From positions 2,254 through 66,253 of the forward strand of contig DJVG01000043.1 in the NCBI GenBank assembly GCA_002441095.1: a stretch of DNA of 64,000 nt, given 5' to 3'. The notes below the pieces were generated by a model. That model did no database searches. It saw only the letters and a program-made list of their open reading frames with translations, and was not told the origin of the DNA. Position numbers and translations under genes: made by a program. The DNA comes from Elusimicrobia bacterium UBA6262 (GTDB lineage: Bacteria; CAYTYR01; UBA6262). Positions 22,045 to 62,814 of this stretch are shown here, one piece after another. The first letter of the stretch is position 1. Each line of letters begins with the position of its first letter.

Positions 22045-22310
22045 TGGCTCAGTAAGAACGAAGAGCAGTCAGAACGAAAAGCAGTAGAAACGAGGAGCAG
22101 TCAGAACGAAAAGCAGTAAAACATAATTACAGTCATTACGAGGAACAGTTGCCAGTAAGTAAAAAAACAGTAAGCGCTAATCTTTATTAGTTACTATCAA
22201 ATGACTCTCGCTGCTTTTGTTTTTCGTTTTGACTGCCTTTCATTCTTACTGCTCTTTGCTTTGACTGCTCTTCGTCTTTACTGCTTCTTGCTTTGACTTA
22301 TTAACTCCGC
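22045..22310. repeat. tandem CAGTCAGAACGAAAAGCAGTA units (22045-22140) and inverted copies TACTGCTTTTCGTTTTGACTG (22200-22310): long imperfect inverted repeat
   Basis: gagcagtcagaacgaaaagcagtagaaacgaggagcagtcagaacgaaaagcagtaaaac ... ctgcttttgtttttcgttttgactgcc...tactgctctttgctttgactgctcttcgtctttactgcttcttgctttgac; related copy at ~20395-20430. Confidence 0.7.
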
Positions 22311-47542: not shown

Positions 47543-48373
47543 ATGACTAAAAATATACTGGAAACTTCCCATCTTATTAAAGATTTTCGCCCTGCAGCTT
47601 CCTTTTCCGAGTGGGCCAAATTTAATTTTACCCCACCGGCTCCGACCAGGGCAATGAACGATCTATCTTTTTCCCTGGAAAGAGGGAAGATCCTGGGGAT
47701 CCTCGGCCCTAATGGCGCGGGGAAAACCACCCTGTTAAAGACCATCGCTACCCTTATTCTCCCCACTTCCGGCACCTTGTCATTTTTTAATGCTGGCCCC
47801 ACGGCTATAACCTGGACCAGCCAGGGCCTCACCAACGAACAGACCGAATGGCAATTAAAGTCCAGTATCGGCTTGACGATAGATGAAGAAAGAAGCTTTT
47901 ACTGGAGATTATCAGGACATCAAAACCTGGAGTTTTTTTCCGCTCTCTATGGGCTCGATGCAGCGGCAACTAGCAAACGCATTAACGAATTATTTTCCCT
48001 TTTTGGGATCGACTATGGGGCTAAAAGATTTGATTCTTACTCCTCCGGCATGAAAAAATGTTTTTCCCTGATCCGGGCCTTGCTCCACAACCCGTCATTG
48101 CTGCTCTTGGACGAACCTACTAAAAGCCTGGATTATGCCACTGCTGCCAGGCTCAAAGAATTTATCAAAACAAAACTCGTGCAGGCTGACGGGAAAACAG
48201 TCATTTTTACTACCCATAACCTGAATGAAAATCTCGATTTTTGCGATCTATTCATGATCCTGCGCCAGGGACAGGTCGCTGCTTTTGGCTCGTTGGCTCA
48301 TTTAAGGCAACAAATAAGCAATCCAGCCGCGACTATAGCGGATATATTCCTGCATTTTACCAGGGAGGCCTGA
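47543..48373 (+). CDS. ABC transporter ATP-binding protein
   Basis: GILGPNGAGKTT, YSSGMKK, LLLDEPT. Confidence 0.85.
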   Translation: MTKNILETSHLIKDFRPAASFSEWAKFNFTPPAPTRAMNDLSFSLERGKILGILGPNGAGKTTLLKTIATLILPTSGTLSFFNAGPTAITWTSQGLTNEQTEWQLKSSIGLTIDEERSFYWRLSGHQNLEFFSALYGLDAAATSKRINELFSLFGIDYGAKRFDSYSSGMKKCFSLIRALLHNPSLLLLDEPTKSLDYATAARLKEFIKTKLVQADGKTVIFTTHNLNENLDFCDLFMILRQGQVAAFGSLAHLRQQISNPAATIADIFLHFTREA

Positions 48374-48374
48374 G

Positions 48375-49181
48375 ATGTGGCATAAACCCTGGGCTTTTAT
48401 CAAAAAAGACTTCCAAAATGTGGCCAGTTACAAACTGGCGCTCTGCCTGAACTTTTTTAGCATTTTTATTGGGATCCTCAGTTACTTTTTTATTGATAAA
48501 TTATTCGGCCAGAAAATTGTGCCGCACTTAGCAGAATTTGGCGTTAACTATTTTGCTTATATTCTGCTCAGCATGGCTTTTTACGGCTATATAGGCGTAG
48601 GCATGGGTTCATTTACCAACCAGATCAGGAATGAGCAATTATTAGGCACCTTGGAAGCTACCCTGCTTACTCCCACCAAGGTCAGCACTATTCTCTTTTC
48701 TATGGCCCTCTGGAACCTGATCTTAGCCAGCCTTGATGTAATGGTGTATATCCTTTTAGGAGTTTTCCTTTTTAAACTGAACTTTTCGAATGTAAATATT
48801 TTGTCCTCATTAGTGATCTTATTCCTGACTATTATTTCTTTCAGCGGCTTGGGCATACTGGCGGCTTGTTTTATCATGATCTTTAAAAGGGGAAATCCGA
48901 TCGGCGGGGTCATTACCGGCATTGAGGGATTAATCAGTGGAGTTTATTTCCCGGTGAGCATCCTGCCTGGCTGGTTGCAGACAGTAGCGATGTTTTTCCC
49001 GATCACTTATGCGATCCGGGCCATTGAATTGGCAGTCTGGCAAGGATATGCGGTAAGCCAGCTATACCGGGAGATCCTGGCTTTAGTTCTTTTTTCCCTG
49101 CTCTTGCTGCCATTGAGTTTGGTACTATTCAGGTACAGCCTCAGAAAAGCCCGGCAAGACGGCAGTCTCGCTCAATTTTAA
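48375..49181 (+). CDS. ABC-2 family transporter permease
   Basis: 268 aa, 6 TM; TGA/ATG coupled to upstream ATPase. Confidence 0.75.
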   Translation: MWHKPWAFIKKDFQNVASYKLALCLNFFSIFIGILSYFFIDKLFGQKIVPHLAEFGVNYFAYILLSMAFYGYIGVGMGSFTNQIRNEQLLGTLEATLLTPTKVSTILFSMALWNLILASLDVMVYILLGVFLFKLNFSNVNILSSLVILFLTIISFSGLGILAACFIMIFKRGNPIGGVITGIEGLISGVYFPVSILPGWLQTVAMFFPITYAIRAIELAVWQGYAVSQLYREILALVLFSLLLLPLSLVLFRYSLRKARQDGSLAQF

Positions 49182-49212: not shown

Positions 49213-51354
49213 TCAATCAAAAATACGGCAGGAATAGTGCAGGTATATCTCGTCAGCAGACCGCTGATATGGCGCAGGAGATACGCGGAACCCGGCTTGT
49301 TGATACAAATTCAAGGCCGGGATAGCTTTTTTGTTAACAAACAAACCAACTTCCCTGGCTCCGGCTGCAGTCGCCCTCACAATCGCTTCCTGTACCAGTT
49401 TCCTGGCTATGCCCAAACCACGGAACATTGGTTTTGTTTCCAGACCGAATATCAGCCAAAGTTTTTCGTCTTTTTCGTATTTGAAAATAGTCAAAGCACC
49501 AGTTATCGTCTTGTTCTTAAGCGCTATTAGACAATATCCTTCTTTTTTGAGGTCAATGATCAATTGCTCTATCTCCTGGACAATCATAGTAGCATATACG
49601 CTGCGCAGGGATTTCTTATCGGCTAATTCAGCTGCCCGGATAATTATATCTTTCCCCGCTATTTTTCCCATTAAACGCCGATAACTCCTCATTTTTTGAA
49701 AAGCGGAAAGGAGATTTATCCGGCGCGCCGCAATTTTATTAATAAATAAAATAAACCTATAGCTTTTTTCTCCCAATGCCCGCCGCGCATAATCAGCAAA
49801 ACCAACTTTAGAAACTTCTTGTTGGCTGATCAAAGCCATTTCTTGTTTATTAGGGAAAATAGCCTGCCAAATAAATTCCAGCCGTTTTCCCCACTTTTCG
49901 TTCATCCCCATGGTTACTAATCCCAGATTAACCTGCCGGCCATAAAAACCATGCTTAATAAATCCTTTCAGGAACCGTCGTTCAAAGATACTTAGTTTTT
50001 TTGGCTTTAACTTCACCAAGCATTCCTGGGGCACCGGCACACCGAAAACCTCATACACCAGTTCCAAGCCAAAATATACATACCTGTCCAGCCCAAGGCT
50101 AAAGGATTCTCTTGCCAGAAAATCCCAATCCAGGCTGCTGCCCTTCAATTGCAGGAACTTAAAGAGATCATATAAAAGCATTCCCGGAGTATACGCATGC
50201 TGAAAAGCATGCAGGCATAAATAAATGACCTGATGCGTATCAGCTAAAGTCAGGGCTGGGACTTCATCCACATAAACGGTCGTGGCCGACTGCCAGATAT
50301 TCTTCATTGTAAATTTTCCCAGGACTTCCTGCTCAAAAGGGAAGAGATTTAATAGATGCCAATAAAGATGAACAAACCGGGGTGTTCCTTGCGGATCAGT
50401 GTACATTAAGCTATTGCGATAGGGATTTGCTTGCAGCGAGGAAAAGTCTTTAATAGCAAAAGGCGCGGTGTAATTTAATTCCTGCAGTATCCTGTCAGCC
50501 GCAGGCAGGTCTTCCCGGGCAACTAAAATATCTACATCTGTTATGGGGCGCAAACCAATGTCCGGATACAGCAATTCTGCCAGGACCGGCCCCTTAAAAA
50601 CAAGGATCTTGATCCCCTGCCGGCGGAAAGCTGCCAATATCTCCCCGGTCTTTTTAAAAATTAAAACATTATTGGTAAGAGTTTGGTAATAACTGCTCCT
50701 GAATCGCTCTAATACCACTGCCGGGATATTCAGTCGTGCTGTCCCCCAAGCTTCTAAGGACTTGTATATCAGCGGCGCTACTTTTTCCTCTATGGCTCGC
50801 TGTAAAAAATATTCCCATTTAAATCCCGGAGCAGACAATTTTTCTATCAGCGGACCATTTTCTTCCCGCTCACTGGGAATATTAACCAGCAGTTTTTCGT
50901 ATATATCATCAGCGTCACCCAGCTTCTTAAATATTGCTGCCAGGGGATAAAAATAAGGCCCTAACTGGGCCAGCCTAAACCAGAAATAGTTAGCGCTACC
51001 GTCTATATTCCTGTGCTTACCGTTCCGTTCAATAGCAATGACTTTACCCAATACATCTTTTGCCTCTACTAGCGGATCCGGATGAATATAGGCATCGCCC
51101 TTGGTCACCAGGACAGTCTGCTCGCCTTGATCTAGCTTTTTTATTACCCGGTGAACATATAATTTACCGGCACTGGTTTTACAAAAAACAATATCCCCTG
51201 AATTGATCATAGCTATTTCAACCGGCTCTACTACTATGGTATCACCAGTGCGCATAAATGGGCGCATACTGCCGCCGGCGACCTGGAATTTTAACCTGTT
51301 TTGGTCCGTCAGTATCTCCTGGCATATCCTGGAGAACTCTATCTGCGGATTCAT
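49213..51354 (-). CDS. tri-domain protein: N-terminal S24/S26 (LexA/signal-peptidase-like) Ser-Lys peptidase domain, central PF14907-type nucleotidyltransferase, C-terminal GNAT acetyltransferase
   Basis: GGSMRPFMRTGDTIVVEP (S24/S26 nucleophile motif); KGPVLAELLYPDIGLRPITDVDILV (NTP_transf_5-like); GLGIARKLVQEAIVRATAAGAREVGLFVNKKAIPALNLYQQAGF (GNAT motif A). Confidence 0.6.
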   Translation of the reverse strand: MNPQIEFSRICQEILTDQNRLKFQVAGGSMRPFMRTGDTIVVEPVEIAMINSGDIVFCKTSAGKLYVHRVIKKLDQGEQTVLVTKGDAYIHPDPLVEAKDVLGKVIAIERNGKHRNIDGSANYFWFRLAQLGPYFYPLAAIFKKLGDADDIYEKLLVNIPSEREENGPLIEKLSAPGFKWEYFLQRAIEEKVAPLIYKSLEAWGTARLNIPAVVLERFRSSYYQTLTNNVLIFKKTGEILAAFRRQGIKILVFKGPVLAELLYPDIGLRPITDVDILVAREDLPAADRILQELNYTAPFAIKDFSSLQANPYRNSLMYTDPQGTPRFVHLYWHLLNLFPFEQEVLGKFTMKNIWQSATTVYVDEVPALTLADTHQVIYLCLHAFQHAYTPGMLLYDLFKFLQLKGSSLDWDFLARESFSLGLDRYVYFGLELVYEVFGVPVPQECLVKLKPKKLSIFERRFLKGFIKHGFYGRQVNLGLVTMGMNEKWGKRLEFIWQAIFPNKQEMALISQQEVSKVGFADYARRALGEKSYRFILFINKIAARRINLLSAFQKMRSYRRLMGKIAGKDIIIRAAELADKKSLRSVYATMIVQEIEQLIIDLKKEGYCLIALKNKTITGALTIFKYEKDEKLWLIFGLETKPMFRGLGIARKLVQEAIVRATAAGAREVGLFVNKKAIPALNLYQQAGFRVSPAPYQRSADEIYLHYSCRIFD

Positions 51355-52211
51355 TAAAACTGGCTCCTGACGAAATCTACTATATTTTTATCCGGTACAA
51401 ATCCTATTTCCCAAGCCGGGATTTTTCTGGCAATTTCTACGCAAAAAGATAAGGCGAATTCGATCCCCTTTTTATCCCAAAATGGCAGGAAAGCAGTAGC
51501 CGCGATCCGGGCTGCGGTCTCTGCCGGAGAAAGAGCTTTCAAGCAGTTTTTGTTCGCTTTTTTAAGAAAATAAATTCCCTTTAATGGCGCTCTATCCGCG
51601 CAACACACCTGGCTTTTGCCATACCAGGGGGTACCGAAAATATATGGGGTCCCCTGCCACTGCCTGACCAACACCCGGTCATCATTAAGGATGGTGACTC
51701 CCTTTTCTTTTTCCCATAATTTTGCCATGGTACTCTTCCCGGCGCCGGAAGCTCCGAGAAAAAGCAACCCCCGTCCCTGGTCATTAATGCCACAGCTATG
51801 GGTTAATATACCTACCCCTAGAGAAAAAAGATGAATGAAATAAATTTCATCAAAAGGATATTGGAAAGGATAAATATTTAATTTCTTGGCTTGAGGATTT
51901 AAATAAATATCACCGGAGGAAAAGTTTTTCTTTAATACAACGGTTTGATAGGGATGGGAGCCGAAATCCAGGTTATAAAAATGCAGGATATTCTTGCCCC
52001 AGGCAGTCCCGAAACACCAGGTAGCGCCAGAGTCAAAATTTATTTTTCCCATCTTGATCAACGGGAAGCTGCCTTGATGAATACGCAGTACTGCCTGACA
52101 ATTACCAGCTGTTTGGAAAGGCCTATATCTTGCCTTAATATTAATCTCTTGATCATCAGCTGAGACCAGAGCAATAGTAACGCCGCCAATTGTCACCTTG
52201 AAATTTGGCAA
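51354..52211 (-). CDS. HPr-kinase-related P-loop kinase (HprK C-terminal-domain-like; candidate peptide kinase)
   Basis: LFLGASGAGKST P-loop followed by NDDRVLV as in HprK/P C-domain. Confidence 0.6.
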   Translation of the reverse strand: MPNFKVTIGGVTIALVSADDQEINIKARYRPFQTAGNCQAVLRIHQGSFPLIKMGKINFDSGATWCFGTAWGKNILHFYNLDFGSHPYQTVVLKKNFSSGDIYLNPQAKKLNIYPFQYPFDEIYFIHLFSLGVGILTHSCGINDQGRGLLFLGASGAGKSTMAKLWEKEKGVTILNDDRVLVRQWQGTPYIFGTPWYGKSQVCCADRAPLKGIYFLKKANKNCLKALSPAETAARIAATAFLPFWDKKGIEFALSFCVEIARKIPAWEIGFVPDKNIVDFVRSQF

Positions 52212-52232: not shown

Positions 52233-52391
52233 TTAAGAGCCGCTTGCTTTATTAACACATGAGTCAGGCCCTTTACAGCCAAATTGCGCTTTTAGGTCCC
52301 CGGTGGCGGCCTTGCAAGCCGTTAAAACTGCTTCTTCAGGAGACAACTTGACTTCTTTTATTTGCGGTGTTTGATACTCTTTTTTGTCCAT
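52233..52391 (-). CDS. candidate RiPP precursor peptide (52 aa: MDKKEYQTPQIKEVKLSPEEAVLTACKAATGDLKAQFGCKGPDSCVNKASGS)
   Basis: ATG at 52389-52391 preceded 5 nt upstream by GGAGGAGG; 3 Cys in C-terminal half, C-terminal Ser; directly downstream of PqqD+rSAM/SPASM; overlaps rSAM 3' end by 56 nt. Confidence 0.5.
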   Translation of the reverse strand: MDKKEYQTPQIKEVKLSPEEAVLTACKAATGDLKAQFGCKGPDSCVNKASGS

Positions 52392-53463
52392 TTTTTCCTC
52401 CTCCGAATTCTTTAGCCCTGAGCTGGGCAATTTGGCACACAAAATCAACGATAAACTCATCCTCGCCGCCTTCCAGGCTGGACCAGGCTGGGCAGAGATT
52501 GCAAAAAGCACTTTGCTGACACTGTCCGCAGGGTGAGTCCTTTTTCTGGCGCGTCAGCGAAGATATCTTAGCAAAACATTCATCCCATCCTTCACGGAAA
52601 GAACCAGCCAGTAAATCAAAGCTGGGTGAGCGCAACATATCGCACAGCCGTAATTGGCCATAAGAGTCTACGGCAAAAGAGCTTTTTCCCGCATTACAGG
52701 TAAAAAGTTTCTCCGAATACGCGGCCTGGCCATATTGGCCATTGAATTCCTGCCAGCCCCGGGAGCGCTTCTGGTCCTCAATATCAAGTTGAACGACCTC
52801 GGCCGGAGAAAGCCGGCAGAAAATATTATCTTTCTGTCCGTTTATCCTGGGCCAGATCATAGCGTCGAACCGGAAATCTATTTTTAATTCTTGTTCCACA
52901 TAATTTTTGATCGGCCAGAGTTCCGGCCGGTTCTGGGTAGTAACCATGGTTTTTAATTTCAATGGAATTTCTCTGTCCAGCAACAACCTGATCCCGCGCT
53001 GGCAGAGATCCAGTGCTTCCCCGTTGCCAGTCATGGCTTTATAAGTTTCCCTGGATATGCCATATAAACTGATCTCTACTAAAAAAGGCGGATAATCCCG
53101 CAGGACATCGGCTATCTCCGGAGTCAATAATGTGCCATTAGTAAAAAGAGTGACAATAAGCCCTTTCTTTTTAGCATATAAATAAAGCTCAATAAAATCT
53201 TCCCTGAGCAAGGGTTCGCCGCCAGTGATCAACAGGTATAAGCACCCGGCTGCTGACAGTTTATCCAAGATCGTTTTAACCTGGCTGGTGTTTAATTCGG
53301 TTTTCCCTGGATCAGTTGTCTCATAACAGTGGACACAATGCAAATTGCAGCGCTGGGTTAAAGTGAATGTACCGCACAAGGGGGTTCTGGCAAGGATCGC
53401 TTTATCGTGCAGAGCAGCGGAAAATTCCGCATAACTGAGTTCCTGGACTTGCGAACACGGCAT
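52336..53463 (-). CDS. radical SAM/SPASM-domain peptide-modifying enzyme
   Basis: CNLHCVHC (CxxxCxxC); C-terminal SPASM Cys cluster CGQCQQSAFCNLCPAW. Confidence 0.8.
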   Translation of the reverse strand: MPCSQVQELSYAEFSAALHDKAILARTPLCGTFTLTQRCNLHCVHCYETTDPGKTELNTSQVKTILDKLSAAGCLYLLITGGEPLLREDFIELYLYAKKKGLIVTLFTNGTLLTPEIADVLRDYPPFLVEISLYGISRETYKAMTGNGEALDLCQRGIRLLLDREIPLKLKTMVTTQNRPELWPIKNYVEQELKIDFRFDAMIWPRINGQKDNIFCRLSPAEVVQLDIEDQKRSRGWQEFNGQYGQAAYSEKLFTCNAGKSSFAVDSYGQLRLCDMLRSPSFDLLAGSFREGWDECFAKISSLTRQKKDSPCGQCQQSAFCNLCPAWSSLEGGEDEFIVDFVCQIAQLRAKEFGGGKNGQKRVSNTANKRSQVVS

Positions 53464-53762
53464 TATAATGCCCTGATTTCTTCAATTAATTTTTTAGTCT
53501 CCAACTGCCCGATGAAAGTGCTTACCTCTTTCCTGGCAGTCTCAGGATTAACAGAAAAAGAACTAACCAAGGCGTCAATAATATGAGCCAGGCTTCTCTT
53601 GCCGTTAATATTGCTCCAGACAAAAGCACCCACTTCATTTAAGGTATAAATACACTTAAGGTCAGCCACTTTGTCCCGGACCGGCACGAGAATTACTTCA
53701 CCGGCGACCTGGCGAAAAACTATATTCTCATTTTTAGCAAATATTTTAGCTAAATCGTTCAT
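53463..53762 (-). CDS. PqqD-family protein (RiPP precursor recognition element)
   Basis: 99 aa; IVFRQVAGEVILV...IYTLNEVGAFVWSNINGKRSLAHIIDAL...FIGQLETKKLIEEI matches PqqD family consensus layout. Confidence 0.75.
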   Translation of the reverse strand: MNDLAKIFAKNENIVFRQVAGEVILVPVRDKVADLKCIYTLNEVGAFVWSNINGKRSLAHIIDALVSSFSVNPETARKEVSTFIGQLETKKLIEEIRAL

Positions 53763-53782: not shown

Positions 53783-54910
53783 TTATTCCTTATCTAAATG
53801 CCTTATCCAAATAGCCGGCTCCGTAGCCAGGTTTACGCGTTTTTCCTCGGTGCACTCTTCGCCATTGCAAGTAGTGATTATTTTTACTACTGGACGAAGA
53901 ATATTATTACTATTCAGGGCGACCACCCTGGCTAATTCCTTGGTGTTCAACTCCACCAGGCTGCCGATCGGGAAAATACCGATCTTGTTTATCAGCACCT
54001 TGATCAATTTAGGATCATAAGCGCTTTTATTTTTCAGTATCTCCTGGATCGTTTCCCGGGCCTGGAATTCGGTGCGGTAGGTTCTCCGGTGCATCATGGC
54101 TTCATATATATCCAGGATACCGACTATAGAACTATATTCATGTATCTGGCTGCCCTTCAAGCCATCGGGATAACCGGAGCCGTCCAGATGTTCATGGTGT
54201 TGCCGCGCCACTTCAAAAACTACATCATCCAGGCCTTTGATACTGGATAACATCTTGGCCGCAAACAAGGTATGGTTTTTTGTCCTCTCAAAATCTTCTT
54301 TGCTTAATTTATTGGCCTGGCTTATTATTTCCAGGTAATGAGCCATCCCCACATCATGCAATAAAGAGGCGGTCCCGAGTTCTTTTAACCGGTATGGTTC
54401 GTATCCTAATTCCAGGCCGATCATTATGGATAAAATACAGACATTGGTTACATGACAAAATATATATGTGGTTTGCGAAGAAACATCCGGATTTAACGCC
54501 AGTTCGGTCATTTTCTCCGGATGCGCCCTGGCTAGATCGATTATCTTGTCTACGATCGCGGAGATCCGGTGAATATCAATAAGCTCATAGATCGCATCTT
54601 CTTTCATTATTTCTTGCATTAAGGCCAGCGCATCATTATAGGCTTTTTCACATTCAGTGAAAGCAGCGACATCTATATTTTGTCTTATAGGCTGCGGGCT
54701 GGGCGTAATTATTTCTGCTTCTGCCGGTGCGGGAGCAGGTTGAAAAACAGTTTCATGATGAGCAACTATGGGAGTGTCTAGTGGAGGAGCGGCGGAGACA
54801 GGTAATGGCTGGATACCCTTATCTGTTTTTTTTCTTTCCTCGATCTTTTTGAATATATCCGACATTTTAACCATGATAGTATTATATATACCATAAAATG
54901 TTCTTGTCAA
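53783..54910 (-). CDS. HD-GYP domain c-di-GMP phosphodiesterase
   Basis: HDVGMAHYLE ... HHEHLDGSGYPDGL. Confidence 0.85.
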   Translation of the reverse strand: MTRTFYGIYNTIMVKMSDIFKKIEERKKTDKGIQPLPVSAAPPLDTPIVAHHETVFQPAPAPAEAEIITPSPQPIRQNIDVAAFTECEKAYNDALALMQEIMKEDAIYELIDIHRISAIVDKIIDLARAHPEKMTELALNPDVSSQTTYIFCHVTNVCILSIMIGLELGYEPYRLKELGTASLLHDVGMAHYLEIISQANKLSKEDFERTKNHTLFAAKMLSSIKGLDDVVFEVARQHHEHLDGSGYPDGLKGSQIHEYSSIVGILDIYEAMMHRRTYRTEFQARETIQEILKNKSAYDPKLIKVLINKIGIFPIGSLVELNTKELARVVALNSNNILRPVVKIITTCNGEECTEEKRVNLATEPAIWIRHLDKE

Positions 54911-55001: not shown

Positions 55002-56447
55002 TTACATCTTTGGCAGGTTCGTCTTTCCCATCAGGTATTTATCTATATTATAAGCCGCGGTACGGCCTTCGGATATGGCCCAGACTATCAGGGACTGGCC
55101 CCGGTGCATGTCCCCGGCAGTAAAAATCTTCTGAACTGAGGTTTGGTGGTTCTCCCCGGCCTTGACATTGCCCCTCTGGTCCAGTTCTACTTTCAGCTTT
55201 TCCAACAATCCTTTTGGTTCCGGGTGCAGGAACCCAAGCGCTAACAGTACCAGGTCTGCCTGGATATTGAACTCACTGCCGGCTATGTCCTTAGGTGATA
55301 CGCAACCCTTGGCATCTTTACCTGACCAATCGATACGGACGCATTCCAAATGCTTGACCTGTCCTTTTTCCCCGCTGAATTTCCTGGTCTGGATGGCCCA
55401 CTCCCTTTCCCCGCCTTCCTCATGGCTGGAAGAAGTCTTCAACAGCGGCGGATATTTGGGCCAGGGGAATTGCCCGGTCCGGCATTCCGGCGCTGGCGGC
55501 AGCAATTCGATCTGCACTACACAGCTGGCTCCCTGGCGATGGGCAGTGCCCACACAGTCTGCACCAGTATCACCGCCGCCGATCACTACCACTTTTTTGC
55601 CTTTAGTATCGATCAATTGGCTGGCTGGTATTTTTTCCCCGCTCACTTTTTTATTGGATTGGATCAGGTAATCCATGGCAAAATAAATTCCTGCCAATTC
55701 CCGGCCCGCGATTTTAAAGTCACGCGGCTGACGTGAGCCACCCGCGAGGCAGACAGCGTCAAATTCCTTCAACAGTTTAGCCACAGGATAATCAATTCCC
55801 GCATTTACATTGGTGCGGAATTCGATCCCTTCTTTTTCATAGATCTCCAGCCGGCGGTCCAGGATACTCTTTTCCAGCTTGAAGTCAGGAATACCGTAAC
55901 GCAAAATACCGCCTGGTTTGGCGTCTTTTTCAAAAACCGTCACCTTATGCCCGGCTTTGTTCAACTGGTCAGCCGCAGCCAGCCCGGCTGGTCCGGACCC
56001 GATCACTGCTACTTTCTTGCCGGTACGTTTCAGCGGCGGTTCAGGTTTGATCAGTCCCATTTTGAAAGCATATTCAATAATAGCCAGCTCATTCTCGCGG
56101 ATCGTGACCGGGTCATCATTAATACCCAGCACGCAGGCAAACTCACACAGAGCCGGGCACAAACGACCGGTAATTTCCGGCAGGTTGTTGCAGGCGTGCA
56201 GGAGTTCAATGGCCCGTTCCCAATGGGAGCGGTAAACCAGGTCGTTCCAGTCAGGAATATAATTACCGATCGGACAACCCCAATGGCAGAACGGCGTCCC
56301 GCAATCCATGCACCGCGAAGCCTGCTCCTGCGTTACTTCTTCTTTCCGCGGTACAACCACGTCACGGTAGTCTTTGGTCCGTACGCACACCGGCCGGTAT
56401 TTTGTTTTTAGCCGTTTTACTTTTAAGAAACCCTTTGGATCACCCAT
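55002..56447 (-). CDS. gltD: glutamate synthase (NADPH) small subunit
   Basis: VAVIGSGPAGLAAADQL dinucleotide-binding motif, N-terminal Cys cluster, 481 aa. Confidence 0.85.
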   Translation of the reverse strand: MGDPKGFLKVKRLKTKYRPVCVRTKDYRDVVVPRKEEVTQEQASRCMDCGTPFCHWGCPIGNYIPDWNDLVYRSHWERAIELLHACNNLPEITGRLCPALCEFACVLGINDDPVTIRENELAIIEYAFKMGLIKPEPPLKRTGKKVAVIGSGPAGLAAADQLNKAGHKVTVFEKDAKPGGILRYGIPDFKLEKSILDRRLEIYEKEGIEFRTNVNAGIDYPVAKLLKEFDAVCLAGGSRQPRDFKIAGRELAGIYFAMDYLIQSNKKVSGEKIPASQLIDTKGKKVVVIGGGDTGADCVGTAHRQGASCVVQIELLPPAPECRTGQFPWPKYPPLLKTSSSHEEGGEREWAIQTRKFSGEKGQVKHLECVRIDWSGKDAKGCVSPKDIAGSEFNIQADLVLLALGFLHPEPKGLLEKLKVELDQRGNVKAGENHQTSVQKIFTAGDMHRGQSLIVWAISEGRTAAYNIDKYLMGKTNLPKM

Positions 56448-56501
56448 TCTTATACCTCGTTTTTCGGTTTACGGTTACGATGCCCGTTTACAAACTTCGG
56501 T
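56448..56501. repeat. tandem ~27-bp CGGTTTACGG-TTACGATGCCCGTTTA units flanking the four-helix-bundle gene
   Basis: cggtttacggttacgatgcccgtttacaaacttcggtttacgggtgcggtttcgatgcccgtttaa. Confidence 0.6.
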
Positions 56502-56912
56502 TTACGGGTGCGGTTTCGATGCCCGTTTAAAACTGTTCCAAACATTTCCGAGTTTATATAACTGTCGCGCTGATTTATCATATGAATCTATCAATTTATT
56601 ACATAATAAAACATCTGTTTGTTCTGGATAAATATCCTTAGTCTGATTCAAGCTGACAATTATTTCATTACACTCAGCCATTGCGTCATCAATATACTTT
56701 TGGAAGCCAGCTTTTTGATGTCGTTTCGCGTACCCCTCAGCTATTAATCTTGGCACTGACTTACATGCTCTACTTAGCTGATCTTTCAAATCATATCTTT
56801 CAACATCTGGTAATTTTGGTAAGACCTCTTTCATTACTACAAGCATCGCTTTATAAGTATTGTTATATACTTCCAAATCCGTAAAACTAACAATCTTCTT
56901 TTTATTTTCCAA
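56502..56912 (-). CDS. four-helix-bundle protein (family frequently encoded in 23S rRNA intervening sequences)
   Basis: 136 aa; LEVYNNTYKAML...RACKSVPRLIAEGYAKR...ECNEIIVSL pattern of the four-helix-bundle (TIGR02436-like) family. Confidence 0.65.
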   Translation of the reverse strand: MENKKKIVSFTDLEVYNNTYKAMLVVMKEVLPKLPDVERYDLKDQLSRACKSVPRLIAEGYAKRHQKAGFQKYIDDAMAECNEIIVSLNQTKDIYPEQTDVLLCNKLIDSYDKSARQLYKLGNVWNSFKRASKPHP

Positions 56913-57038
56913 TTCTTTTCCTTTCGCTCTCCGAAACCGTATATCGATTCCTAGCTTCTATTCGGGCCTCGTATCCGTTTACCGTATACCAAGCTTCTAT
57001 TCGGGCTTCGTTACCGTACACCGTATACCGAGCTTTTA
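56913..57038. repeat. tandem ~44-bp AGCTTCTATTCGGGCYTCGT-TCCGTTTACCGTATACC units flanking the four-helix-bundle gene
   Basis: agcttctattcgggcctcgtatccgtttaccgtataccaagcttctattcgggcttcgttaccgtacaccgtataccgagctt. Confidence 0.6.
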
Positions 57039-60000
57039 TTATCCGTCATAAGACTGTTCTAAGTCCAGCTTATCTGCTTTTTTCTTGGATTCCAGTATCT
57101 TCTTGTATTCCAGCGGCATGACCTTGATGAATTTCCCGCGCTGGCCCTCAAAATCAGCCAGTACTTTTTGCGCGTATTCACTGCCAGTGTATTTTTTGTG
57201 GTTTTCCAGCAGGTTTTTTATTATGCCCGCATCATCTTCATTAACAATATCCAATTCCACCATATCCTGGTTGCACCTGGCTGGGAAATTACCGTCTTCA
57301 TCAAGTATATAGGCTACGCCGCCGCTCATGCCAGCCGCGAAATTGCGCCCGGTACTGCCCAGGACCACGATCCTGCCACCGGTCATGTATTCACAACCAT
57401 GGTCGCCTACACCTTCCACTACCGCGTTTAATCCGGAATTCCTGATACAGAATCTTTCCCCAGCCCGGCCGCAAATATAAGCTTCCCCGGTGATGGCTCC
57501 GTAAAAAGTAGTATTTCCGATTATAATATTCTCTTCCGGCCGGTAATCTGATTTCCGGTCAGGATAAATTATTATCTTCCCGCCGGAGATGCCTTTACCG
57601 ACATAGTCATTAGCCAGTCCTTCCAGCTCGAAAGTCACGCCTCTGGCCAGCCACGCACCGAAACTCTGCCCAGCCATGCCCTTGAATTTAAAATTAATAG
57701 AATCTTCCGGCAAGCCAGCTTCGCCATATTTTTTACAAACTTCGCCGCTCAACATGGCGCCGGTCGTGCGATTGGTATTTTTGATTGTGAGCTCTACTTT
57801 GATCGGTTCCTTTTTTTCCAGCGCTGGTTTGGCCAGGACGATCAATTGCCGGTCCAGCACCTTATCTATATTATGGTTTTGTTTAATGATCTGGTGTGTT
57901 TCAATATTTATATTGGCCTTCGGCTGGTATAACATCCGGGAATAATCCAGACCTTTGGTTTTCCAGTCTAGCATATCCTTGTTCAGCTCCAGCAGGTCTG
58001 TCCGGCCGACCATATCTTCCAAGGTAGGAGTGCCTAATCCTGCCATGATCTCCCGCAGTTCTTCGGCTACTAAACGGAAATAATTCACCAGGTATTCTGG
58101 TTTACCGCGGAACCGTTTGCGCAACTCTTCATCCTGGGTGCAAACCCCGACCGAGCAATTATTCAAATGGCAATGCCTCAGCATCACGCAGCCTAATACA
58201 ACCAGGGCAGCAGTGCCGAACCCGAATTCTTCGGCTCCGAGCATTGCGGCTATGGCCAGGTCCCGTCCGGTGCGCATTTGTCCGTCAGCCTGCAGGCGGA
58301 CCCGGCTCCTCAGGTCATTGAGCACCAGGGTCTGGTGCGTTTCTGATAATCCCAGCTCCCAGGGCAGGCCGGCATGCTTGACCGAGCTCAACGGTGACGC
58401 TCCGGTGCCGCCATCCCCGCCGGAGATCAGGATCATGTCAGCATGGCCCTTGGCCACGCCCGCGGCTACGGTCCCTACGCCGATCTCTGATACCAGCTTG
58501 ACGCTGACGCGCGCTGTAGGATTAGTATTTTTCAGGTCGAAGATCAACTGGGCCAGGTCTTCGATAGAATAAATGTCATGATGCGGCGGCGGTGAGATCA
58601 GCGTTACGCCCGGAGTAGTGTAACGGGTTTTGGCGATCGTCACGCTTACCTTATGACCGGGTAACTGTCCGCCTTCACCTGGTTTCGCGCCTTGGGATAT
58701 CTTTATCTGCAATTCATCGGCATTGACCAGGTAATTGGTAGTTACACCGAAACGGCCGGATGCGACTTGTTTAATAGCGCTGCGCACCGAATCCCCGTTC
58801 GGTAATGGCGCGAACCTGGCTGGATCCTCTCCACCCTCTCCGGTATTGGACTTACCGCCTAAACGGTTCATGGCCATAGCCATGGTTTCATGAGTTTCCT
58901 TACTGATCGAGCCGAAGCTCATAGCTCCGGTCACAAAATGTTTGACCAGGTTTTCTATTGGTTCTACTTTATCCAAAGAAATCGGCTTGGCCTTTTTTAA
59001 TTTCAGCAAACTGCGCAAAGTGGTCGGATGTCCCGATTGGTCATTGATCAGACCGGCGAATTCTTTATACTTCCCGTAATCCCCGTTGCGCGTAGCATCC
59101 TGCAGAGCGGCAATGCTTTCAGGATTCCACAAATGGTATTCCCCGTCCCTTTTCCACTGGTATAACCCGCCGGTGATCAAATACGGGGTCTTGAATTCAT
59201 CGCGCAAAGGATAGGCCTGCTGATGGCGCAAAATGGTTTCCCGGGCCAGGATTTTCATATCCGCTCCGCCGATGCGGGAAACAGTGCCGGCAAAACATCT
59301 CTCGATCACGTCGTCAGCCAAACCAAGAGCTTCATAGATCTGGGCGCCGCGGTAGCTTTGCAAAGTGGAAATACCCATTTTCGAAAGCACTTTTTTAATG
59401 CCCTTGTTAATAGCTTTAATATAATTATCGACTGCCTTGTCCAGTCGGAGATGCACTTCCCCTTCCAGGATCAGGTGCTCGATAGCTTCATACGCCAGGT
59501 AAGGATTAACAACTCCCGCGCCAAAAGCCAGCAAGAGAGTGAAGTGATTCACTTCCCTGGGTTCCGCGCTTTCTACAATTATGGCGATCTGCGCGCGCAA
59601 TCCTTTTTTTACCAGGTATTGGTGGACTGCCCCGGTAGCCAGCAGGGCTGGCAACGCGGCTTGTTTCCGGCTGGTGCCCCGGTCGCTCAAAATAATAAAA
59701 GTAAACCCTTCGCTGATCGCTTCCCGCGCATCGGCGCAGATACGGTCGAGAGCTTTCAGGAATTCTTTTTCATCTTCTGCTTCGTTCCCATTGACCGGGA
59801 ACAGGATCGAGATCCGCTTGGCGCGGAATCCGGGCTCTTTAATAGAATGTATCCGGGTCAGCTCATCGTTAGTAATGACTGGCAGCGGTACCCTGAGCTT
59901 GCGGCAATTTTGCGGTACTTCTTCCATTAAATTCTTTCGCGGGCCCATAAAGCTTTCCAGGCTCATGACCAGTTCTTCCCGGATCGGGTCGATCGGCGGA

Positions 60001-61592
60001 TTGGTCACCTGGGCGAACAGCATACGGAAATAAGTATAAGGTAATTGCGGTTTTTTGCTTAATACCGCGTGCGGCGTGTCATTGCCCATGGAACCGACTG
60101 GTTCCTGGCCATTCTCCACCATCGGCTTGATAATAGTTTTCAGGTCTTCCCGGCTATAGCCGAACGCCTTCATATCAGTCAGTATATCTGTTGATCTTAA
60201 ATAAGCACTCTTGTCCAAAGGCATCATCACTGCTTCCGGCAAGCTGTCCAGTTCCAGCATATTATCTTTGATCCATTCGCCGTACGGGTTGCGGCTGGAC
60301 ATCTGCTCTTTCAATTCCCGGTCGTCGATGATCCTCCCCGCTTCGGTATCGATAAAGAACATCTTCCCTGGTTCAAGTCTTCCTGAATACAAAATATCCT
60401 GCGGCGGGATATCCAATACTCCCACTTCAGAGGCCATGACCACCAGGTCTTTCTTGGTCACCAGATACCGCGCCGGCCGCAAGCCATTGCGGTCCAGCAC
60501 CGCGCCGATCTGCCTGCCGTCGGTGAAAGCAATAGCTGCCGGTCCGTCCCAGGGCTCCATCAGGCAGGTATGGTACATGTAGAAATCTTTTAACTGCTGG
60601 TCCATCAGGTCATTGTGTTCCCAGACCGACGGGATCAGCATGGTCATAGAATGGGCTAAAGACCGGCCCGCCAAAACCATTAATTCGAAAACATTATCAA
60701 TAGACGCGGAATCACTGCCATCAGGTACGATAGTAGGCATGATCTTTTTCAGGTCCTCACCGAATAATTTGCTTTTCAGCAACCCTTCCTTGGCCCGCAT
60801 CCAGTTGATATTGCCCCGCAGGGTATTGATCTCGCCATTATGCGCCAGGAAACGGAACGGCTGCGCCAGGTCCCAGGCCGGGAAAGTATTTGTACTGTAG
60901 CGTGAATGCACCAGGCTGATCGCGCTGTGCAAAGCCGGATCTTTCAGGTCAACAAAATATTCTGCGACCTGTTCCGGCATCAGGAGACCTTTATAGGAAA
61001 AAGTCCGGTTGGACAAATTAGTAATATAGAAAAAAGATTTCTGTTGCAGGGGAGACTCACGGATAGCATTTTCAACCAGTTTGCGGATAATATAGAGTTT
61101 TCTTTCGAGATAAAGACTGTCTTGTCCGGCTTTAGCGCTGGCAGTGCCGACAAATACTTGTTCGATCATTGGCTCAGTTTCTCGGGCAGTCTTGCCAATG
61201 ACCGAGTTATCTACCGGTACCGGACGCCAGCCCAGTATTTCGCATTTTTCATTTTTGACGATCGCGGCGAATTTCTTTTTGCAGTATTCCCTCTCTTTAG
61301 CATCTGTTGGCAAAAACACCAGGCCAGTGCCATACTTCCCGGCAGCAGGCAAATTGAAGCCGGCTGTGCGGCAAACCTGGCTGAAAAACTCATGCGGTAT
61401 CTGGATCAATATGCCGGCTCCGTCACCGGTCTTGGGGTCAGATCCCGTAGCACCGCGGTGAGCCAGCCGGTTAAGAACTTCTAATCCTTGCCTGACTATT
61501 TCATTGGAGCGCTGGCCCTTGATATTACAGACAAAGCCAACTCCGCAGGAATCATGTTCATATCGCGGATCGTACAACCCTTGAGGTTTCAT
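57039..61592 (-). CDS. gltB: glutamate synthase large subunit
   Basis: 1517 aa; N-terminal ...EHDSCGVGFV amidotransferase Cys, FMN and 3Fe-4S regions. Confidence 0.9.
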   Translation of the reverse strand: MKPQGLYDPRYEHDSCGVGFVCNIKGQRSNEIVRQGLEVLNRLAHRGATGSDPKTGDGAGILIQIPHEFFSQVCRTAGFNLPAAGKYGTGLVFLPTDAKEREYCKKKFAAIVKNEKCEILGWRPVPVDNSVIGKTARETEPMIEQVFVGTASAKAGQDSLYLERKLYIIRKLVENAIRESPLQQKSFFYITNLSNRTFSYKGLLMPEQVAEYFVDLKDPALHSAISLVHSRYSTNTFPAWDLAQPFRFLAHNGEINTLRGNINWMRAKEGLLKSKLFGEDLKKIMPTIVPDGSDSASIDNVFELMVLAGRSLAHSMTMLIPSVWEHNDLMDQQLKDFYMYHTCLMEPWDGPAAIAFTDGRQIGAVLDRNGLRPARYLVTKKDLVVMASEVGVLDIPPQDILYSGRLEPGKMFFIDTEAGRIIDDRELKEQMSSRNPYGEWIKDNMLELDSLPEAVMMPLDKSAYLRSTDILTDMKAFGYSREDLKTIIKPMVENGQEPVGSMGNDTPHAVLSKKPQLPYTYFRMLFAQVTNPPIDPIREELVMSLESFMGPRKNLMEEVPQNCRKLRVPLPVITNDELTRIHSIKEPGFRAKRISILFPVNGNEAEDEKEFLKALDRICADAREAISEGFTFIILSDRGTSRKQAALPALLATGAVHQYLVKKGLRAQIAIIVESAEPREVNHFTLLLAFGAGVVNPYLAYEAIEHLILEGEVHLRLDKAVDNYIKAINKGIKKVLSKMGISTLQSYRGAQIYEALGLADDVIERCFAGTVSRIGGADMKILARETILRHQQAYPLRDEFKTPYLITGGLYQWKRDGEYHLWNPESIAALQDATRNGDYGKYKEFAGLINDQSGHPTTLRSLLKLKKAKPISLDKVEPIENLVKHFVTGAMSFGSISKETHETMAMAMNRLGGKSNTGEGGEDPARFAPLPNGDSVRSAIKQVASGRFGVTTNYLVNADELQIKISQGAKPGEGGQLPGHKVSVTIAKTRYTTPGVTLISPPPHHDIYSIEDLAQLIFDLKNTNPTARVSVKLVSEIGVGTVAAGVAKGHADMILISGGDGGTGASPLSSVKHAGLPWELGLSETHQTLVLNDLRSRVRLQADGQMRTGRDLAIAAMLGAEEFGFGTAALVVLGCVMLRHCHLNNCSVGVCTQDEELRKRFRGKPEYLVNYFRLVAEELREIMAGLGTPTLEDMVGRTDLLELNKDMLDWKTKGLDYSRMLYQPKANINIETHQIIKQNHNIDKVLDRQLIVLAKPALEKKEPIKVELTIKNTNRTTGAMLSGEVCKKYGEAGLPEDSINFKFKGMAGQSFGAWLARGVTFELEGLANDYVGKGISGGKIIIYPDRKSDYRPEENIIIGNTTFYGAITGEAYICGRAGERFCIRNSGLNAVVEGVGDHGCEYMTGGRIVVLGSTGRNFAAGMSGGVAYILDEDGNFPARCNQDMVELDIVNEDDAGIIKNLLENHKKYTGSEYAQKVLADFEGQRGKFIKVMPLEYKKILESKKKADKLDLEQSYDG

Positions 61593-61752
61593 TTACGTTA
61601 CCTCTTTTATCCAAGAACCGAGATTTGATTATGGAATTCGATAAAAATTCTCTTCATATTTTTTTCTAAAAAGATGCTTACATACCCGTGCGAGTATGCG
61701 CGCTTCTTTTTAGAAAAAAATATTTTGAGCTTTTTCATCTCGGTTCTCATAA
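61593..61752. promoter_or_regulatory. gltB upstream region with nested inverted repeats (GAACCGAGAT...ATCTCGGTTC outer; TTTCTAAAAAG...CTTTTTAGAAA inner)
   Basis: ccaagaaccgagatttg...tttttctaaaaagatgcttacatacccgtgcgagtatgcgcgcttctttttagaaaaaaata...ttcatctcggttctcat. Confidence 0.4.
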
Positions 61753-62073
61753 CTAATCTCGGCTCTCGGATTTCCATCTCGTGATGTCAATGCCCAGTTT
61801 CTTGATCTTGGTACGGAGAGTATTCCTATTTATACCTAATATCCTGGCAGTTTTCAACTGGTTTCCTGCGGTTTGTTCCAAAACAAAATCAATCAGCTGT
61901 TTTTCAACCTTGGCCATGACCGTCTTGTAGAGGATCCCGCTTTTTTCTTCTACCACACCATATCCTTCGGCCTTGAGCATCTGGCTGACTATTTTCTGGA
62001 TCTTTTTTTCGTTTTCCGCGATCAAGACAGTGATCATAGAACAATCCTTTTCCAGGCACAGCCTTTTGTGCAT
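61753..62073 (-). CDS. small Fis-type HTH (HTH_8) DNA-binding protein
   Basis: 106 aa; QLIDFVLEQTAGNQLKTARILGINRNTLRTKIKKLGI = NtrC/Fis C-terminal HTH. Confidence 0.6.
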   Translation of the reverse strand: MHKRLCLEKDCSMITVLIAENEKKIQKIVSQMLKAEGYGVVEEKSGILYKTVMAKVEKQLIDFVLEQTAGNQLKTARILGINRNTLRTKIKKLGIDITRWKSESRD

Positions 62074-62111
62074 TTTTTGCCTATACTTTAATCACTTCCG
62101 GCTAAAAAAAA

Positions 62112-62804: not shown

Positions 62805-62814
62805 AGATCCTTAT

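What the first reader, a model, noticed from the sequence alone, without database searches (positions are those of the whole stretch)
51354..52211. HprK-related P-loop kinase as candidate peptide kinase
The sequence has a GASGAGKST Walker A motif followed by the NDDRVLV block typical of the HPr kinase/phosphorylase C-domain. It sits directly downstream of the precursor, and its stop overlaps the start of the tri-domain gene. In characterised lasso-peptide systems such as the paeninodin type, HprK homologues phosphorylate the C-terminal Ser of the peptide. The precursor here ends in Ser.
Basis: partly seen in the sequence, partly recalled or inferred. Interest (0 to 1): 0.6.

Follow-up and report, generated by a model that had tools for sequence, protein, structure and literature searches.

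The report
HprK-like kinase of a radical-SAM peptide cassette
This gene encodes an HPr-kinase-like ATP-binding enzyme that always sits right after a small peptide gene whose product always ends in serine or threonine, so it most likely phosphorylates that peptide in a very widespread, still uncharacterised peptide-modification pathway.

Summary
Window 51354-52211 (minus strand) encodes a 285-aa protein with Walker A GASGAGKST and NDDRVLV. It starts 21 nt after a 52-aa precursor gene, and its stop overlaps the start of the tri-domain gene (TAATG).

It is not a true HprK/P. It belongs to the uncharacterised Pfam family ScmC (PF27840). Its confident model has a PEPCK/HprK-type fold, and the catalytic His-Lys-Asp-Asp of HprK/P and of the lasso-peptide kinases is conserved.

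The system is not a lasso cluster; the window has no cyclase. The conserved cassette is PqqD, radical-SAM/SPASM enzyme, precursor, ScmC-like kinase and S26-type peptidase. About 45% of loci add NTP_transf_5, and some add GNAT and ABC export genes.

Among 193 distinct precursors:
- all carry a lasso-type YxxPx(L/I/V) leader motif;
- 187 have three Cys;
- all end in Ser (185) or Thr (8), usually Gly-Ser.

That terminal residue is the only conserved hydroxyl in the core. [quoted passage not shown] This is inferred, not shown.

I rate it a new variant of a known kind: a lasso-type tailoring kinase recruited to a large radical-SAM peptide family found in at least 588 species genomes. About a quarter of loci lie beside exopolysaccharide genes.

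The parts
51354..52211 (-). ScmC-family HprK/PEPCK-fold P-loop kinase-like protein (285 aa); the finding itself
51729..51755 (-). Walker A / P-loop G153-A-S-G-A-G-K159-S-T161
   Evidence: Read from the sequence. G153, G156, G158, K159 and T161 are invariant in 45 homologues. Aligns to the GDSGVGKS P-loop of L. casei HprK/P.
51666..51686 (-). N176-D177-D178-R179-V-L-V182: Asp-Asp(-Arg) catalytic/metal-binding block
   Evidence: D177 and R179 are invariant and D178 is at least 90% conserved. Aligns to ADDRVDV of HprK/P. The equivalent Asp pair is essential in PsmK (PMC6993621).
51798..51800 (-). His138 codon (catalytic His of the His-Lys-Asp-Asp set)
   Evidence: Invariant in 45 homologues. Aligns with the His of 'MHGVLV' in HprK/P.
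52233..52391 (-). Precursor peptide gene (52 aa): leader with Y6-x-x-P9-x-I11, then C26-K27, C39, C45 and C-terminal G51-S52
   Evidence: A homologous small ORF lies immediately upstream of the kinase gene in 84 of 86 related loci. Motif statistics come from 193 distinct sequences. No NCBIfam or Pfam family matches.
52336..53463 (-). Radical-SAM/SPASM peptide maturase (375 aa; CNLHCVHC cluster motif; Cys-rich C-terminus); its 3' end overlaps the precursor gene by 56 nt
   Evidence: Pfam Radical_SAM 80.8 bits. Near full-length NCBIfam alignments to the mycofactocin maturase, AlbA and PapB, all below cut-off. Present upstream of the kinase gene in 82 of 87 loci.
53463..53762 (-). PqqD-family RiPP recognition element (99 aa)
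   Evidence: Pfam PqqD 59.7 bits. Best NCBIfam hit is lasso_PqqD_Bac, 41 bits, below cut-off. Present in 72 of 87 loci.
51031..51306 (-). S26/S24 signal-peptidase-I-like domain (aa 17-108 of the tri-domain protein 49213-51354); candidate leader peptidase
   Evidence: TIGR02228 sigpep_I_arch scores 64.9 bits, above its 51.85 cut-off. A homologous domain is detected in 73 of 87 loci, in most of them just downstream of the kinase gene.
50041..50826 (-). NTP_transf_5 (PF14907) nucleotidyltransferase-like domain (aa 177-438 of the tri-domain protein), with a D-x-D motif (TDVDIL)
   Evidence: Pfam 159.6 bits. Present in 39 of 87 loci, either fused or as a separate gene.
49270..49581 (-). GNAT acetyltransferase domain (aa 592-695 of the tri-domain protein)
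   Evidence: Pfam Acetyltransf_1 49 bits. Present in 11 of 87 loci.
47543..49181 (+). Convergent ABC exporter pair (DrrA-like ATPase 47543-48373; ABC-2 permease 48375-49181); candidate peptide export
   Evidence: Homologues lie within 7 kb in 14-20 of 87 loci.
53783..54910 (-). HD_5 (HD-GYP-like) protein directly upstream of the cassette; possibly associated
   Evidence: Pfam HD_5 92.7 bits. A homologue lies nearby in 18 of 87 loci.

Best explanation
The gene encodes an ATP-dependent peptide Ser/Thr kinase of the HprK/PEPCK P-loop superfamily (Pfam family ScmC). It belongs to a conserved RiPP cassette: PqqD recognition element, radical-SAM/SPASM maturase, precursor peptide, this kinase, and an S26-type peptidase. 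Proposed mechanism: the PqqD protein binds the YxxPx(L/I/V) leader motif and presents the linear precursor. The kinase holds the peptide tail in the cleft between its N-terminal beta domain and its P-loop domain. It then transfers the gamma-phosphate of ATP to the side-chain hydroxyl of the invariant C-terminal Ser (Ser52 here), using His138, Lys159, Asp177 and Asp178. The radical-SAM enzyme presumably cross-links the three conserved Cys, and the S26-like domain presumably removes the leader. Where present, the NTP_transf_5 domain may decorate the phosphate, as PsmN does in pseudomycoidin, and the GNAT domain may acetylate. Shown here: the fold, the conserved catalytic residues, the gene linkage, and the invariance of the C-terminal Ser/Thr. 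Inferred: kinase activity, the substrate, the site, the order of steps and RRE dependence.
Against: There is no biochemical evidence for any ScmC-family protein. I found no paper on them in the searchable library. Sequence similarity to HprK-type models is weak: 32 bits to HprK_rel_B, 18 bits to Pfam Hpr_kinase_C, all below cut-offs. I could not compare directly with PadeK, ThcoK, PsmK or BsfK because no sequences were available. HprK-type RiPP kinases do not always target the C-terminus; BsfK phosphorylates Ser3. The invariant C-terminal Gly-Ser could instead be required by the radical-SAM enzyme or the peptidase. HprK/P itself is also a phosphorylase, so the physiological direction or chemistry could differ. 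A co-fold of kinase and precursor could not be run.
Confidence: 0.6

Rival explanations
1. The protein is a peptide kinase, but phosphorylation is a transient activation step rather than the final modification. One option is that phospho-Ser is eliminated to dehydroalanine for Cys addition, as in class III/IV lanthipeptide synthetases. Another is that it serves only as the acceptor for a nucleotidyl or glycosyl group, or that another residue is the target.
For: NTP_transf_5 co-occurs in 39 of 87 loci, and PsmN adds hexose to the phosphate made by PsmK. The core has three conserved Cys. BsfK shows that site choice varies among HprK-type RiPP kinases.
Against: No lyase domain lies in the cassette. 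More than half of the loci lack NTP_transf_5 yet keep both the kinase and the C-terminal Ser/Thr. No internal Ser/Thr of the core is conserved.
Confidence: 0.17
2. It is an ATP-binding but non-kinase accessory protein of the radical-SAM maturase, acting as a scaffold, a chaperone, or an ATP-driven loader or releaser of the peptide.
For: It is strictly co-located with PqqD, the radical-SAM enzyme and the precursor. No activity has been shown for the family. The N-terminal beta domain has no assigned function.
Against: Beyond the nucleotide-binding P-loop, the phosphotransfer residues His138 and Asp177-Asp178-Arg179 are invariant or nearly so across phyla. A mere ATP-binding scaffold would not be expected to keep them.
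Confidence: 0.1
3. It phosphorylates a non-peptide substrate of the neighbouring exopolysaccharide pathway, such as a sugar, a lipid carrier or a glycan, in the way PEPCK-fold enzymes act on small molecules.
Against: Only about a quarter of loci have EPS neighbours, whereas about 98% have the precursor directly upstream. The PEPCK substrate-binding motifs were not examined. The nearest sequence relatives are HprK-type protein or peptide kinases.
Confidence: 0.07
4. It is a bona fide HPr kinase/phosphorylase that regulates carbon catabolite control.
For: Only the shared P-loop and Asp-Asp core.
Against: TIGR00679 scores 17.3 bits against a cut-off of 240, and no HprK N-terminal domain hit was found. 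Full-length HprK/P structures align over only 120-132 residues. No ptsH or PTS genes were found among the window ORFs of at least 150 aa that I scanned. Gene context is fixed to a RiPP cassette in 80+ genomes.
Confidence: 0.01

Closest known systems
Lasso-peptide precursor kinases (PadeK, ThcoK, SyanK, PsmK, BsfK)
   Same: HprK-related P-loop proteins encoded right after the precursor gene. They share the conserved His-Lys-Asp-Asp set. They act on a leader-bearing linear precursor whose leader has YxxPxL bound by a PqqD-type RRE. The precursor has a conserved (mostly C-terminal) Ser. They often co-occur with an uncharacterised NTP-transferase and an ABC exporter.
   Different: No lasso cyclase (Asn-synthetase homologue) or B2 transglutaminase-type protease is present. 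The class-defining enzyme is a radical-SAM/SPASM protein and the protease is S26-like. Direct sequence relatedness to the lasso kinases was not tested. Activity is unproven.
HPr kinase/phosphorylase (HprK/P; TIGR00679, PF07475 plus the N-terminal domain)
   Different: Scores lie far below the family cut-offs (17 against 240 bits; 18 against 33 bits). The N-terminal domain is different, the context is unrelated to PTS, and the presumed substrate is a peptide rather than HPr.
Haft's in-silico HprK-like families: ScmC (TIGR04249 / Pfam PF27840), HprK-related kinase B (TIGR04355) and A (TIGR04352)
   Same: The identical protein P0001 and all homologues carry the precomputed Pfam hit PF27840 'ScmC'. 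As in the SynChlorMet cassette, partners are a PqqD homologue and radical-SAM/SPASM protein(s). From memory: the TIGRFAM text says no precursor had been identified for that cassette.
   Different: All three NCBIfam equivalog models are missed by a wide margin: 21.8 against 125, 32.4 against 200 and 16.8 against 200 bits. This cassette has one radical-SAM gene, not two. It has a clearly identifiable precursor family and an S26-like peptidase.
ATP-dependent PEP carboxykinase (fold only)
   Different: Only 13% identity, about half the size, and no metabolic context. I treat it as a structural relative, not a functional assignment.

Membership tests
Bona fide HprK/P (TIGR00679 / PF07475 plus the HprK N-terminal domain) | Scores above the curated cut-off of the family models | tested here: not met
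   TIGR00679 scores 17.3 bits against 240. PF07475 scores 18.1 bits against 33.3.
Bona fide HprK/P | HprK/P-type N-terminal domain and PTS/ptsH genomic context | tested here: not met
   No N-terminal domain family hit. Full-length HprK/P structures align over only 120-132 residues, whereas PEPCK aligns over 223. No PTS genes appear among the window ORFs of at least 150 aa that I scanned.
HprK/PEPCK P-loop kinase superfamily (fold level) | PEPCK/HprK-type P-loop domain with Walker A plus His and Asp-Asp catalytic residues | tested here: met
Pfam ScmC (PF27840) | Significant match to the family HMM | tested here: inconclusive
   The model is not in the local Pfam copy. However, the 100%-identical P0001 and nearly all homologues carry the precomputed PF27840.1 hit, which names ScmC. 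Membership is very likely but was not rescored here.
NCBIfam ScmC equivalog (TIGR04249, SynChlorMet cassette) | Score of at least 125 bits; cassette with two radical-SAM/SPASM genes (ScmE, ScmF) plus ScmD | tested here: not met
   21.8 bits. Only one radical-SAM gene lies in the cassette, and it scores 62-65 bits against 400 for ScmE/ScmF.
HprK-related kinase B (TIGR04355) and A (TIGR04352) | Score of at least 200 bits | tested here: not met
   32.4 and 16.8 bits.
Lasso-peptide tailoring kinases (PadeK/ThcoK/PsmK/BsfK type) | Conserved His-Lys-Asp-Asp catalytic motif | tested here: met
   H138, K159, D177 and D178 are invariant or at least 90% conserved. The motif is described in PMC9266682.
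Lasso-peptide tailoring kinases | Cognate precursor with a conserved phospho-acceptor Ser (usually C-terminal) and a YxxPxL leader recognised by a PqqD-type RRE | tested here: met
   193 of 193 precursors end in Ser/Thr. 193 of 193 have YxxP, with L/I/V at +5 in 190. A PqqD gene is present.
Lasso-peptide tailoring kinases | Encoded in a lasso cluster (Asn-synthetase-like cyclase C and B2 protease) | tested here: not met
   No Asn_synthase or transglutaminase-like protease appears among the window ORFs of at least 150 aa that I scanned or in the homologous loci examined.
Lasso-peptide tailoring kinases | Closer sequence relationship to PadeK/ThcoK/PsmK than to other HprK-like clades | not tested
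   No lasso-kinase sequence could be obtained.
Lasso-peptide tailoring kinases | ATP-dependent phosphorylation of the precursor | not testable with these tools
   Requires biochemistry.

The most novel reading that the evidence does not exclude
The cassette defines a very large, uncharacterised RiPP class with a YxxPxL leader and a CK...C...C...G-S core, with thousands of precursor clusters across Acidobacteriota, Omnitrophota, Chloroflexota, Desulfobacterota and others. In this reading the C-terminal phosphoserine made by the ScmC-type kinase is a handle for phospho-linked glycosyl or nucleotidyl decoration by NTP_transf_5. The modified peptide would then act together with the adjacent Wza/Wzz/Wzy exopolysaccharide machinery, for example as a primer, an anchor or a signal for matrix production, rather than as an antibiotic.
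Probability: 0.12. Interest if true: 0.8.

Novelty: new variant of a known kind. Interest (0 to 1): 0.6.

Why it matters
HprK-type peptide kinases have so far been characterised only in lasso-peptide clusters. This work shows that a related kinase comes with a lasso-type leader motif, a PqqD recognition element and often an NTP-transferase. All of these are wired to a radical-SAM/SPASM maturase in a family present in at least 588 species genomes and about 3,300 precursor clusters. This gives a concrete, cheap-to-test prediction, O-phosphorylation of an invariant C-terminal Ser/Thr, for a Pfam family (ScmC) that has no known function. It also identifies the precursor peptides for cassettes of this type. 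It suggests that RiPP leader-recognition and tailoring modules are swapped between classes. The enrichment next to exopolysaccharide loci hints at a physiological role beyond antibiosis.

Tried and rejected
1. Co-folding the kinase with its precursor. Docking of Ser52 into the active site is therefore untested.

2. A fold search against afdb50 to pick up annotated lasso kinases. The library was not installed.

3. Reading Zhu et al. 2016 (PMC4919450) and Haft & Basu 2011 (PMC3133131). Neither is held.

4. Literature searches for SynChlorMet, ScmC, HprK plus radical SAM, PF14907, and phosphorylated radical-SAM RiPPs. None found a characterisation. I could not confirm that PsmN belongs to PF14907, so that remains a recollection.

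5. A single-sequence search against PDB sequences. It gave only insignificant P-loop hits. The family profile was needed to reach HprK/P.

6. True HprK/P and CoaE/UDK-type kinases. Rejected on scores, fold ranking and context.

7. A lasso system. Rejected because there is no cyclase or B2 protease.

8. An EPS-pathway kinase. Kept only as a minor rival, because only 10 of 42 long loci have EPS neighbours whereas about 98% have the precursor.
Full report
**1. What is in the sequence**

The coordinates 51354-52211 are an ORF on the minus strand. It encodes 285 aa from a TTG at 52211, preceded by GGTGGA five bases upstream. An identical protein in the public collection, P0001, was called from a GTG five codons further in (280 aa).

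The translation contains GASGAGKST at residues 153-161 (window 51729-51755). It contains NDDRVLV at residues 176-182 (51666-51686).

The gene begins 21 nt after the stop of a 52-aa ORF (52233-52391): MDKKEYQTPQIKEVKLSPEEAVLTACKAATGDLKAQFGCKGPDSCVNKASGS. That ORF has its own GAGGA ribosome-binding site. The kinase-like gene's TAA overlaps the ATG of the next gene, 49213-51354, as TAATG.

**2. The operon**

On the minus strand the order is as follows:
- an HD_5 protein (53783-54910);
- PqqD (53463-53762; Pfam PqqD 59.7 bits; best NCBIfam hit is the lasso-type PqqD chaperone, below cut-off);
- a radical-SAM/SPASM enzyme (52336-53463; CNLHCVHC motif; near full-length sub-threshold alignments to the mycofactocin maturase, AlbA and PapB);
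- the precursor;
- the kinase-like gene;
- a 713-aa tri-domain protein.

The tri-domain protein has three parts. The N-terminus is signal-peptidase-I-like (TIGR02228, 64.9 bits, above its 51.85 cut-off). The middle is NTP_transf_5 (PF14907, 159.6 bits). The C-terminus is a GNAT acetyltransferase.

A DrrA-like ABC ATPase and an ABC-2 permease converge on the operon from the plus strand (47543-49181).

The window ORFs of at least 150 aa that I scanned include no asparagine-synthetase-like lasso cyclase and no transglutaminase-type B2 protease. This is a radical-SAM RiPP-type cassette, not a lasso cluster.

**3. What the protein is**

Curated models give only weak, sub-threshold hits, and all are to HprK-like families:
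- HprK-related kinase B: 32.4 bits, cut-off 200, E 5e-8;
- ScmC TIGR04249: 21.8 against 125;
- HprK/P TIGR00679: 17.3 against 240;
- HprK-related kinase A: 16.8 against 200.

Pfam Hpr_kinase_C scores 18.1 against 33.3.

The identical database protein, and nearly all of 220 homologues, carry a precomputed hit to a newer Pfam family, PF27840. The context tool names this family ScmC. It derives from Haft's in-silico "SynChlorMet cassette". I found no paper on it.

- then a gap: the best other P-loop kinase scores 5.6, and cytidylate and adenylate kinases score about 4.7-4.8.

A profile of the family aligns to L. casei HprK/P (1jb1/2qmh, E 8.8e-5 against all PDB sequences). The family's "vHacgv..GrGllflGeSGAGKST...iLsDDRiivr" pairs with "MHGVLV..GLGVLITGDSGVGKSE...LIADDRVDVY" in HprK/P.

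In the 45-sequence alignment (31-74% identity), H138, G153, G156, G158, K159, T161, D177 and R179 are invariant. So is a family-specific GTPWxG motif. D178 is at least 90% conserved.

This His-Lys-Asp-Asp set was shown by mutagenesis to be needed in lasso-peptide kinases (review PMC9266682). The Asp pair is essential in PsmK (D158A/D159A; PMC6993621).

The protein is neither a true HprK/P nor a CoaE/UDK-type kinase.

**4. Evidence from relatives**

Most are MAGs of Acidobacteriota, Omnitrophota, Chloroflexota, Desulfobacterota, Nitrospirota, WOR-3 and others. The closest, at 74% identity, is an uncultured Clostridia MAG with the same synteny.

An exhaustive profile search of 1.84 billion cluster representatives found 2,631 proteins at E<=1e-30 and 11,904 at E<=1e-10.

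I examined 87 loci, counting the window. Component counts:

| Component | Loci (of 87) |
|---|---|
| Radical-SAM homologue | 82 |
| PqqD | 72 |
| S26-like peptidase domain | 73 |
| NTP_transf_5 | 39 |
| GNAT | 11 |

The radical-SAM and PqqD genes lie upstream of the kinase gene on the same strand in most of these loci. The S26-like domain usually lies just downstream of it.

A profile built from four precursors finds a homologous small ORF directly upstream of the kinase gene in 84 of 86 related loci. The conserved core is therefore PqqD, radical-SAM enzyme, precursor, kinase and peptidase. NTP_transf_5, GNAT and ABC genes are frequent accessories. In some relatives a giant CLIPPER/Peptidase_C25 protein follows the kinase gene instead.

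**5. The precursor family**

A profile search with 39 precursors found 3,269 protein clusters. All are "hypothetical" and none has a Pfam family. Pooling these with the loci gives 193 distinct sequences:
- 193 of 193 contain YxxP;
- 190 of 193 have L/I/V at position Y+5;
- the distance from that Tyr to an invariant Cys-Lys is exactly 20 residues in 192 of 193;
- 187 of 193 have exactly three Cys from that point on;
- the last residue is Ser in 185 and Thr in 8, and never anything else;
- Gly is the usual penultimate residue (GS 57 and GT 6 of 78; GS 110 and GT 2 of 120).

In the 39-sequence alignment the only invariant positions are M1, Y6, P9, C26, K27, C39 and C45, with G51 nearly invariant. 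The terminal residue is always Ser or Thr, and no internal Ser or Thr of the core is conserved.

**6. Most likely mechanism**

In characterised systems, HprK-type kinases phosphorylate the linear, leader-bearing lasso precursor on a conserved Ser. In PadeK, ThcoK, SyanK and PsmK this is the C-terminal residue. BsfK needs the leader and is strongly stimulated by the PqqD-type B1 protein. It accepts Ser-to-Thr but not Ser-to-Tyr. In the psm cluster the kinase gene follows the precursor gene, and an uncharacterised NTP-transferase, PsmN, adds hexose(s) to the phosphate.

The cassette here repeats that logic. It has a PqqD protein, a YxxPx(L/I/V) leader, a kinase gene directly after the precursor gene, an invariant terminal Ser/Thr, a frequent NTP_transf_5 domain and an ABC exporter. 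The difference is that a radical-SAM/SPASM enzyme and an S26-like peptidase replace the lasso cyclase and the B2 protease.

I therefore propose three steps. PqqD presents the precursor. The kinase binds the peptide tail in the cleft between its PEPCK-like N-terminal domain and its P-loop domain. It then transfers phosphate from ATP to the side chain of Ser52.

Shown here: fold, catalytic residues, linkage and precursor conservation. Inferred: activity, site, order of steps, RRE dependence, and any follow-on decoration by NTP_transf_5 or GNAT. My confidence is about 0.6.

**7. Rivals**

- The phosphate may be transient, serving elimination or as an acceptor for further groups, or it may sit elsewhere. 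BsfK phosphorylates Ser3. Against this, there is no lyase, most loci lack NTP_transf_5, and no other core hydroxyl is conserved.
- The protein may be an ATP-binding scaffold. This is unlikely given the invariant His and Asp-Asp-Arg.
- It may be an EPS-pathway kinase. PEPCK is the top fold hit, and the cassette heads a roughly 25-kb polysaccharide locus. However, only 10 of 42 long loci have such neighbours, against about 98% with the precursor.
- It may be a true HprK/P. This is effectively excluded.
- The terminal Gly-Ser may instead be dictated by the radical-SAM enzyme or the peptidase. I cannot exclude this.

**8. Comparison with the known, and novelty**

The protein works like the lasso-peptide tailoring kinases, but it fails the membership criterion of sitting in a lasso cluster. 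I could not test direct sequence relatedness to them.

It is very likely a member of Pfam ScmC. It is not a member of the NCBIfam equivalogs TIGR04249, TIGR04355 or TIGR04352.

No publication in the searchable library describes an HprK-like kinase in a radical-SAM RiPP pathway, or describes this precursor family.

I rate it a new variant of a known kind. It is a known type of RiPP tailoring enzyme, recruited together with its leader-recognition logic to a different and very widespread RiPP scaffold.

**9. What failed or could not be done**

- The afdb50 library was unavailable.
- Two key papers were not held.
- Whether PsmN belongs to PF14907 could not be verified.

Noticed in passing
window 22798-47447 (minus strand): The cassette sits at the head of a roughly 25-kb exopolysaccharide locus. 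Genes include a WecA-like GT4, PIG-L, an AAA_22 ATPase (best hit XrtA/PEP-CTERM-associated ATPase, 209 bits, below cut-off), WbqC, DegT, several GTs and methyltransferases, a flippase, a deacetylase, Wzy, a Wzz/tyrosine kinase and Wza. No exosortase gene was found in the window. A 40%-identical kinase homologue (L003) has the same neighbours. Ten of 42 long related loci have at least two EPS export-type genes within 7 kb.
   Followed up: partly
window 28826-29980 and 35326-36771 (minus strand): Two more radical-SAM genes lie inside the polysaccharide locus. One is a SPASM-domain protein next to DegT and a GT1. The other is a B12-binding radical-SAM protein. Neither has an obvious peptide substrate gene, so they may be sugar-modifying.
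   Followed up: no
window 53783-54910 (minus strand): An HD_5 (HD-GYP-like, possible c-di-GMP phosphodiesterase) gene lies directly upstream of PqqD. A homologue is near the cassette in 18 of 87 loci, and L003 has two in tandem. A PilZ-domain gene lies at 22246-22713 at the far end of the EPS locus.
   Followed up: partly
window 52336-52391: The radical-SAM ORF runs 56 nt into the precursor gene, giving a 375-aa protein. In the 74%-identical relative L001 the overlap is only 8 nt and the protein has 359 aa. The extra C-terminal tail (…GGGKNGQKRVSNTANKRSQVVS) is probably not conserved protein.
   Followed up: no
L005/L006 8908-16698: In some relatives (about 31% identity in the kinase) the gene after the kinase is a giant protein of up to 2,596 aa. 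It has an N-terminal S24/S26-like segment, many CLIPPER repeats and a Peptidase_C25 domain, in place of the NTP_transf_5/GNAT fusion.
   Followed up: no
window 56502-57040: A 23S-rRNA-intervening-sequence-protein (PF05635) gene is inserted between the glutamate synthase small and large subunit genes. It is followed by a 39-nt tandem repeat of 2.7 copies at 56935-57040.
   Followed up: partly
window 2185-10101 (minus strand): Very large PAS-rich sensor proteins: a 1,300-aa protein with at least seven PAS domains, a 282-aa PAS protein, and a 1,059-aa dCache-HAMP-PAS histidine kinase, followed by a response regulator at 1416-1904.
   Followed up: no
window 10220-12412, 55002-63960: Nitrogen-assimilation genes flank the region: a type III glutamine synthetase, gltD/gltB-like glutamate synthase subunits, a second Gln-synt_C-ter protein and a class-I GATase. 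The same gltB-gltD-HD_5-cassette synteny is kept in L001/L007.
   Followed up: no
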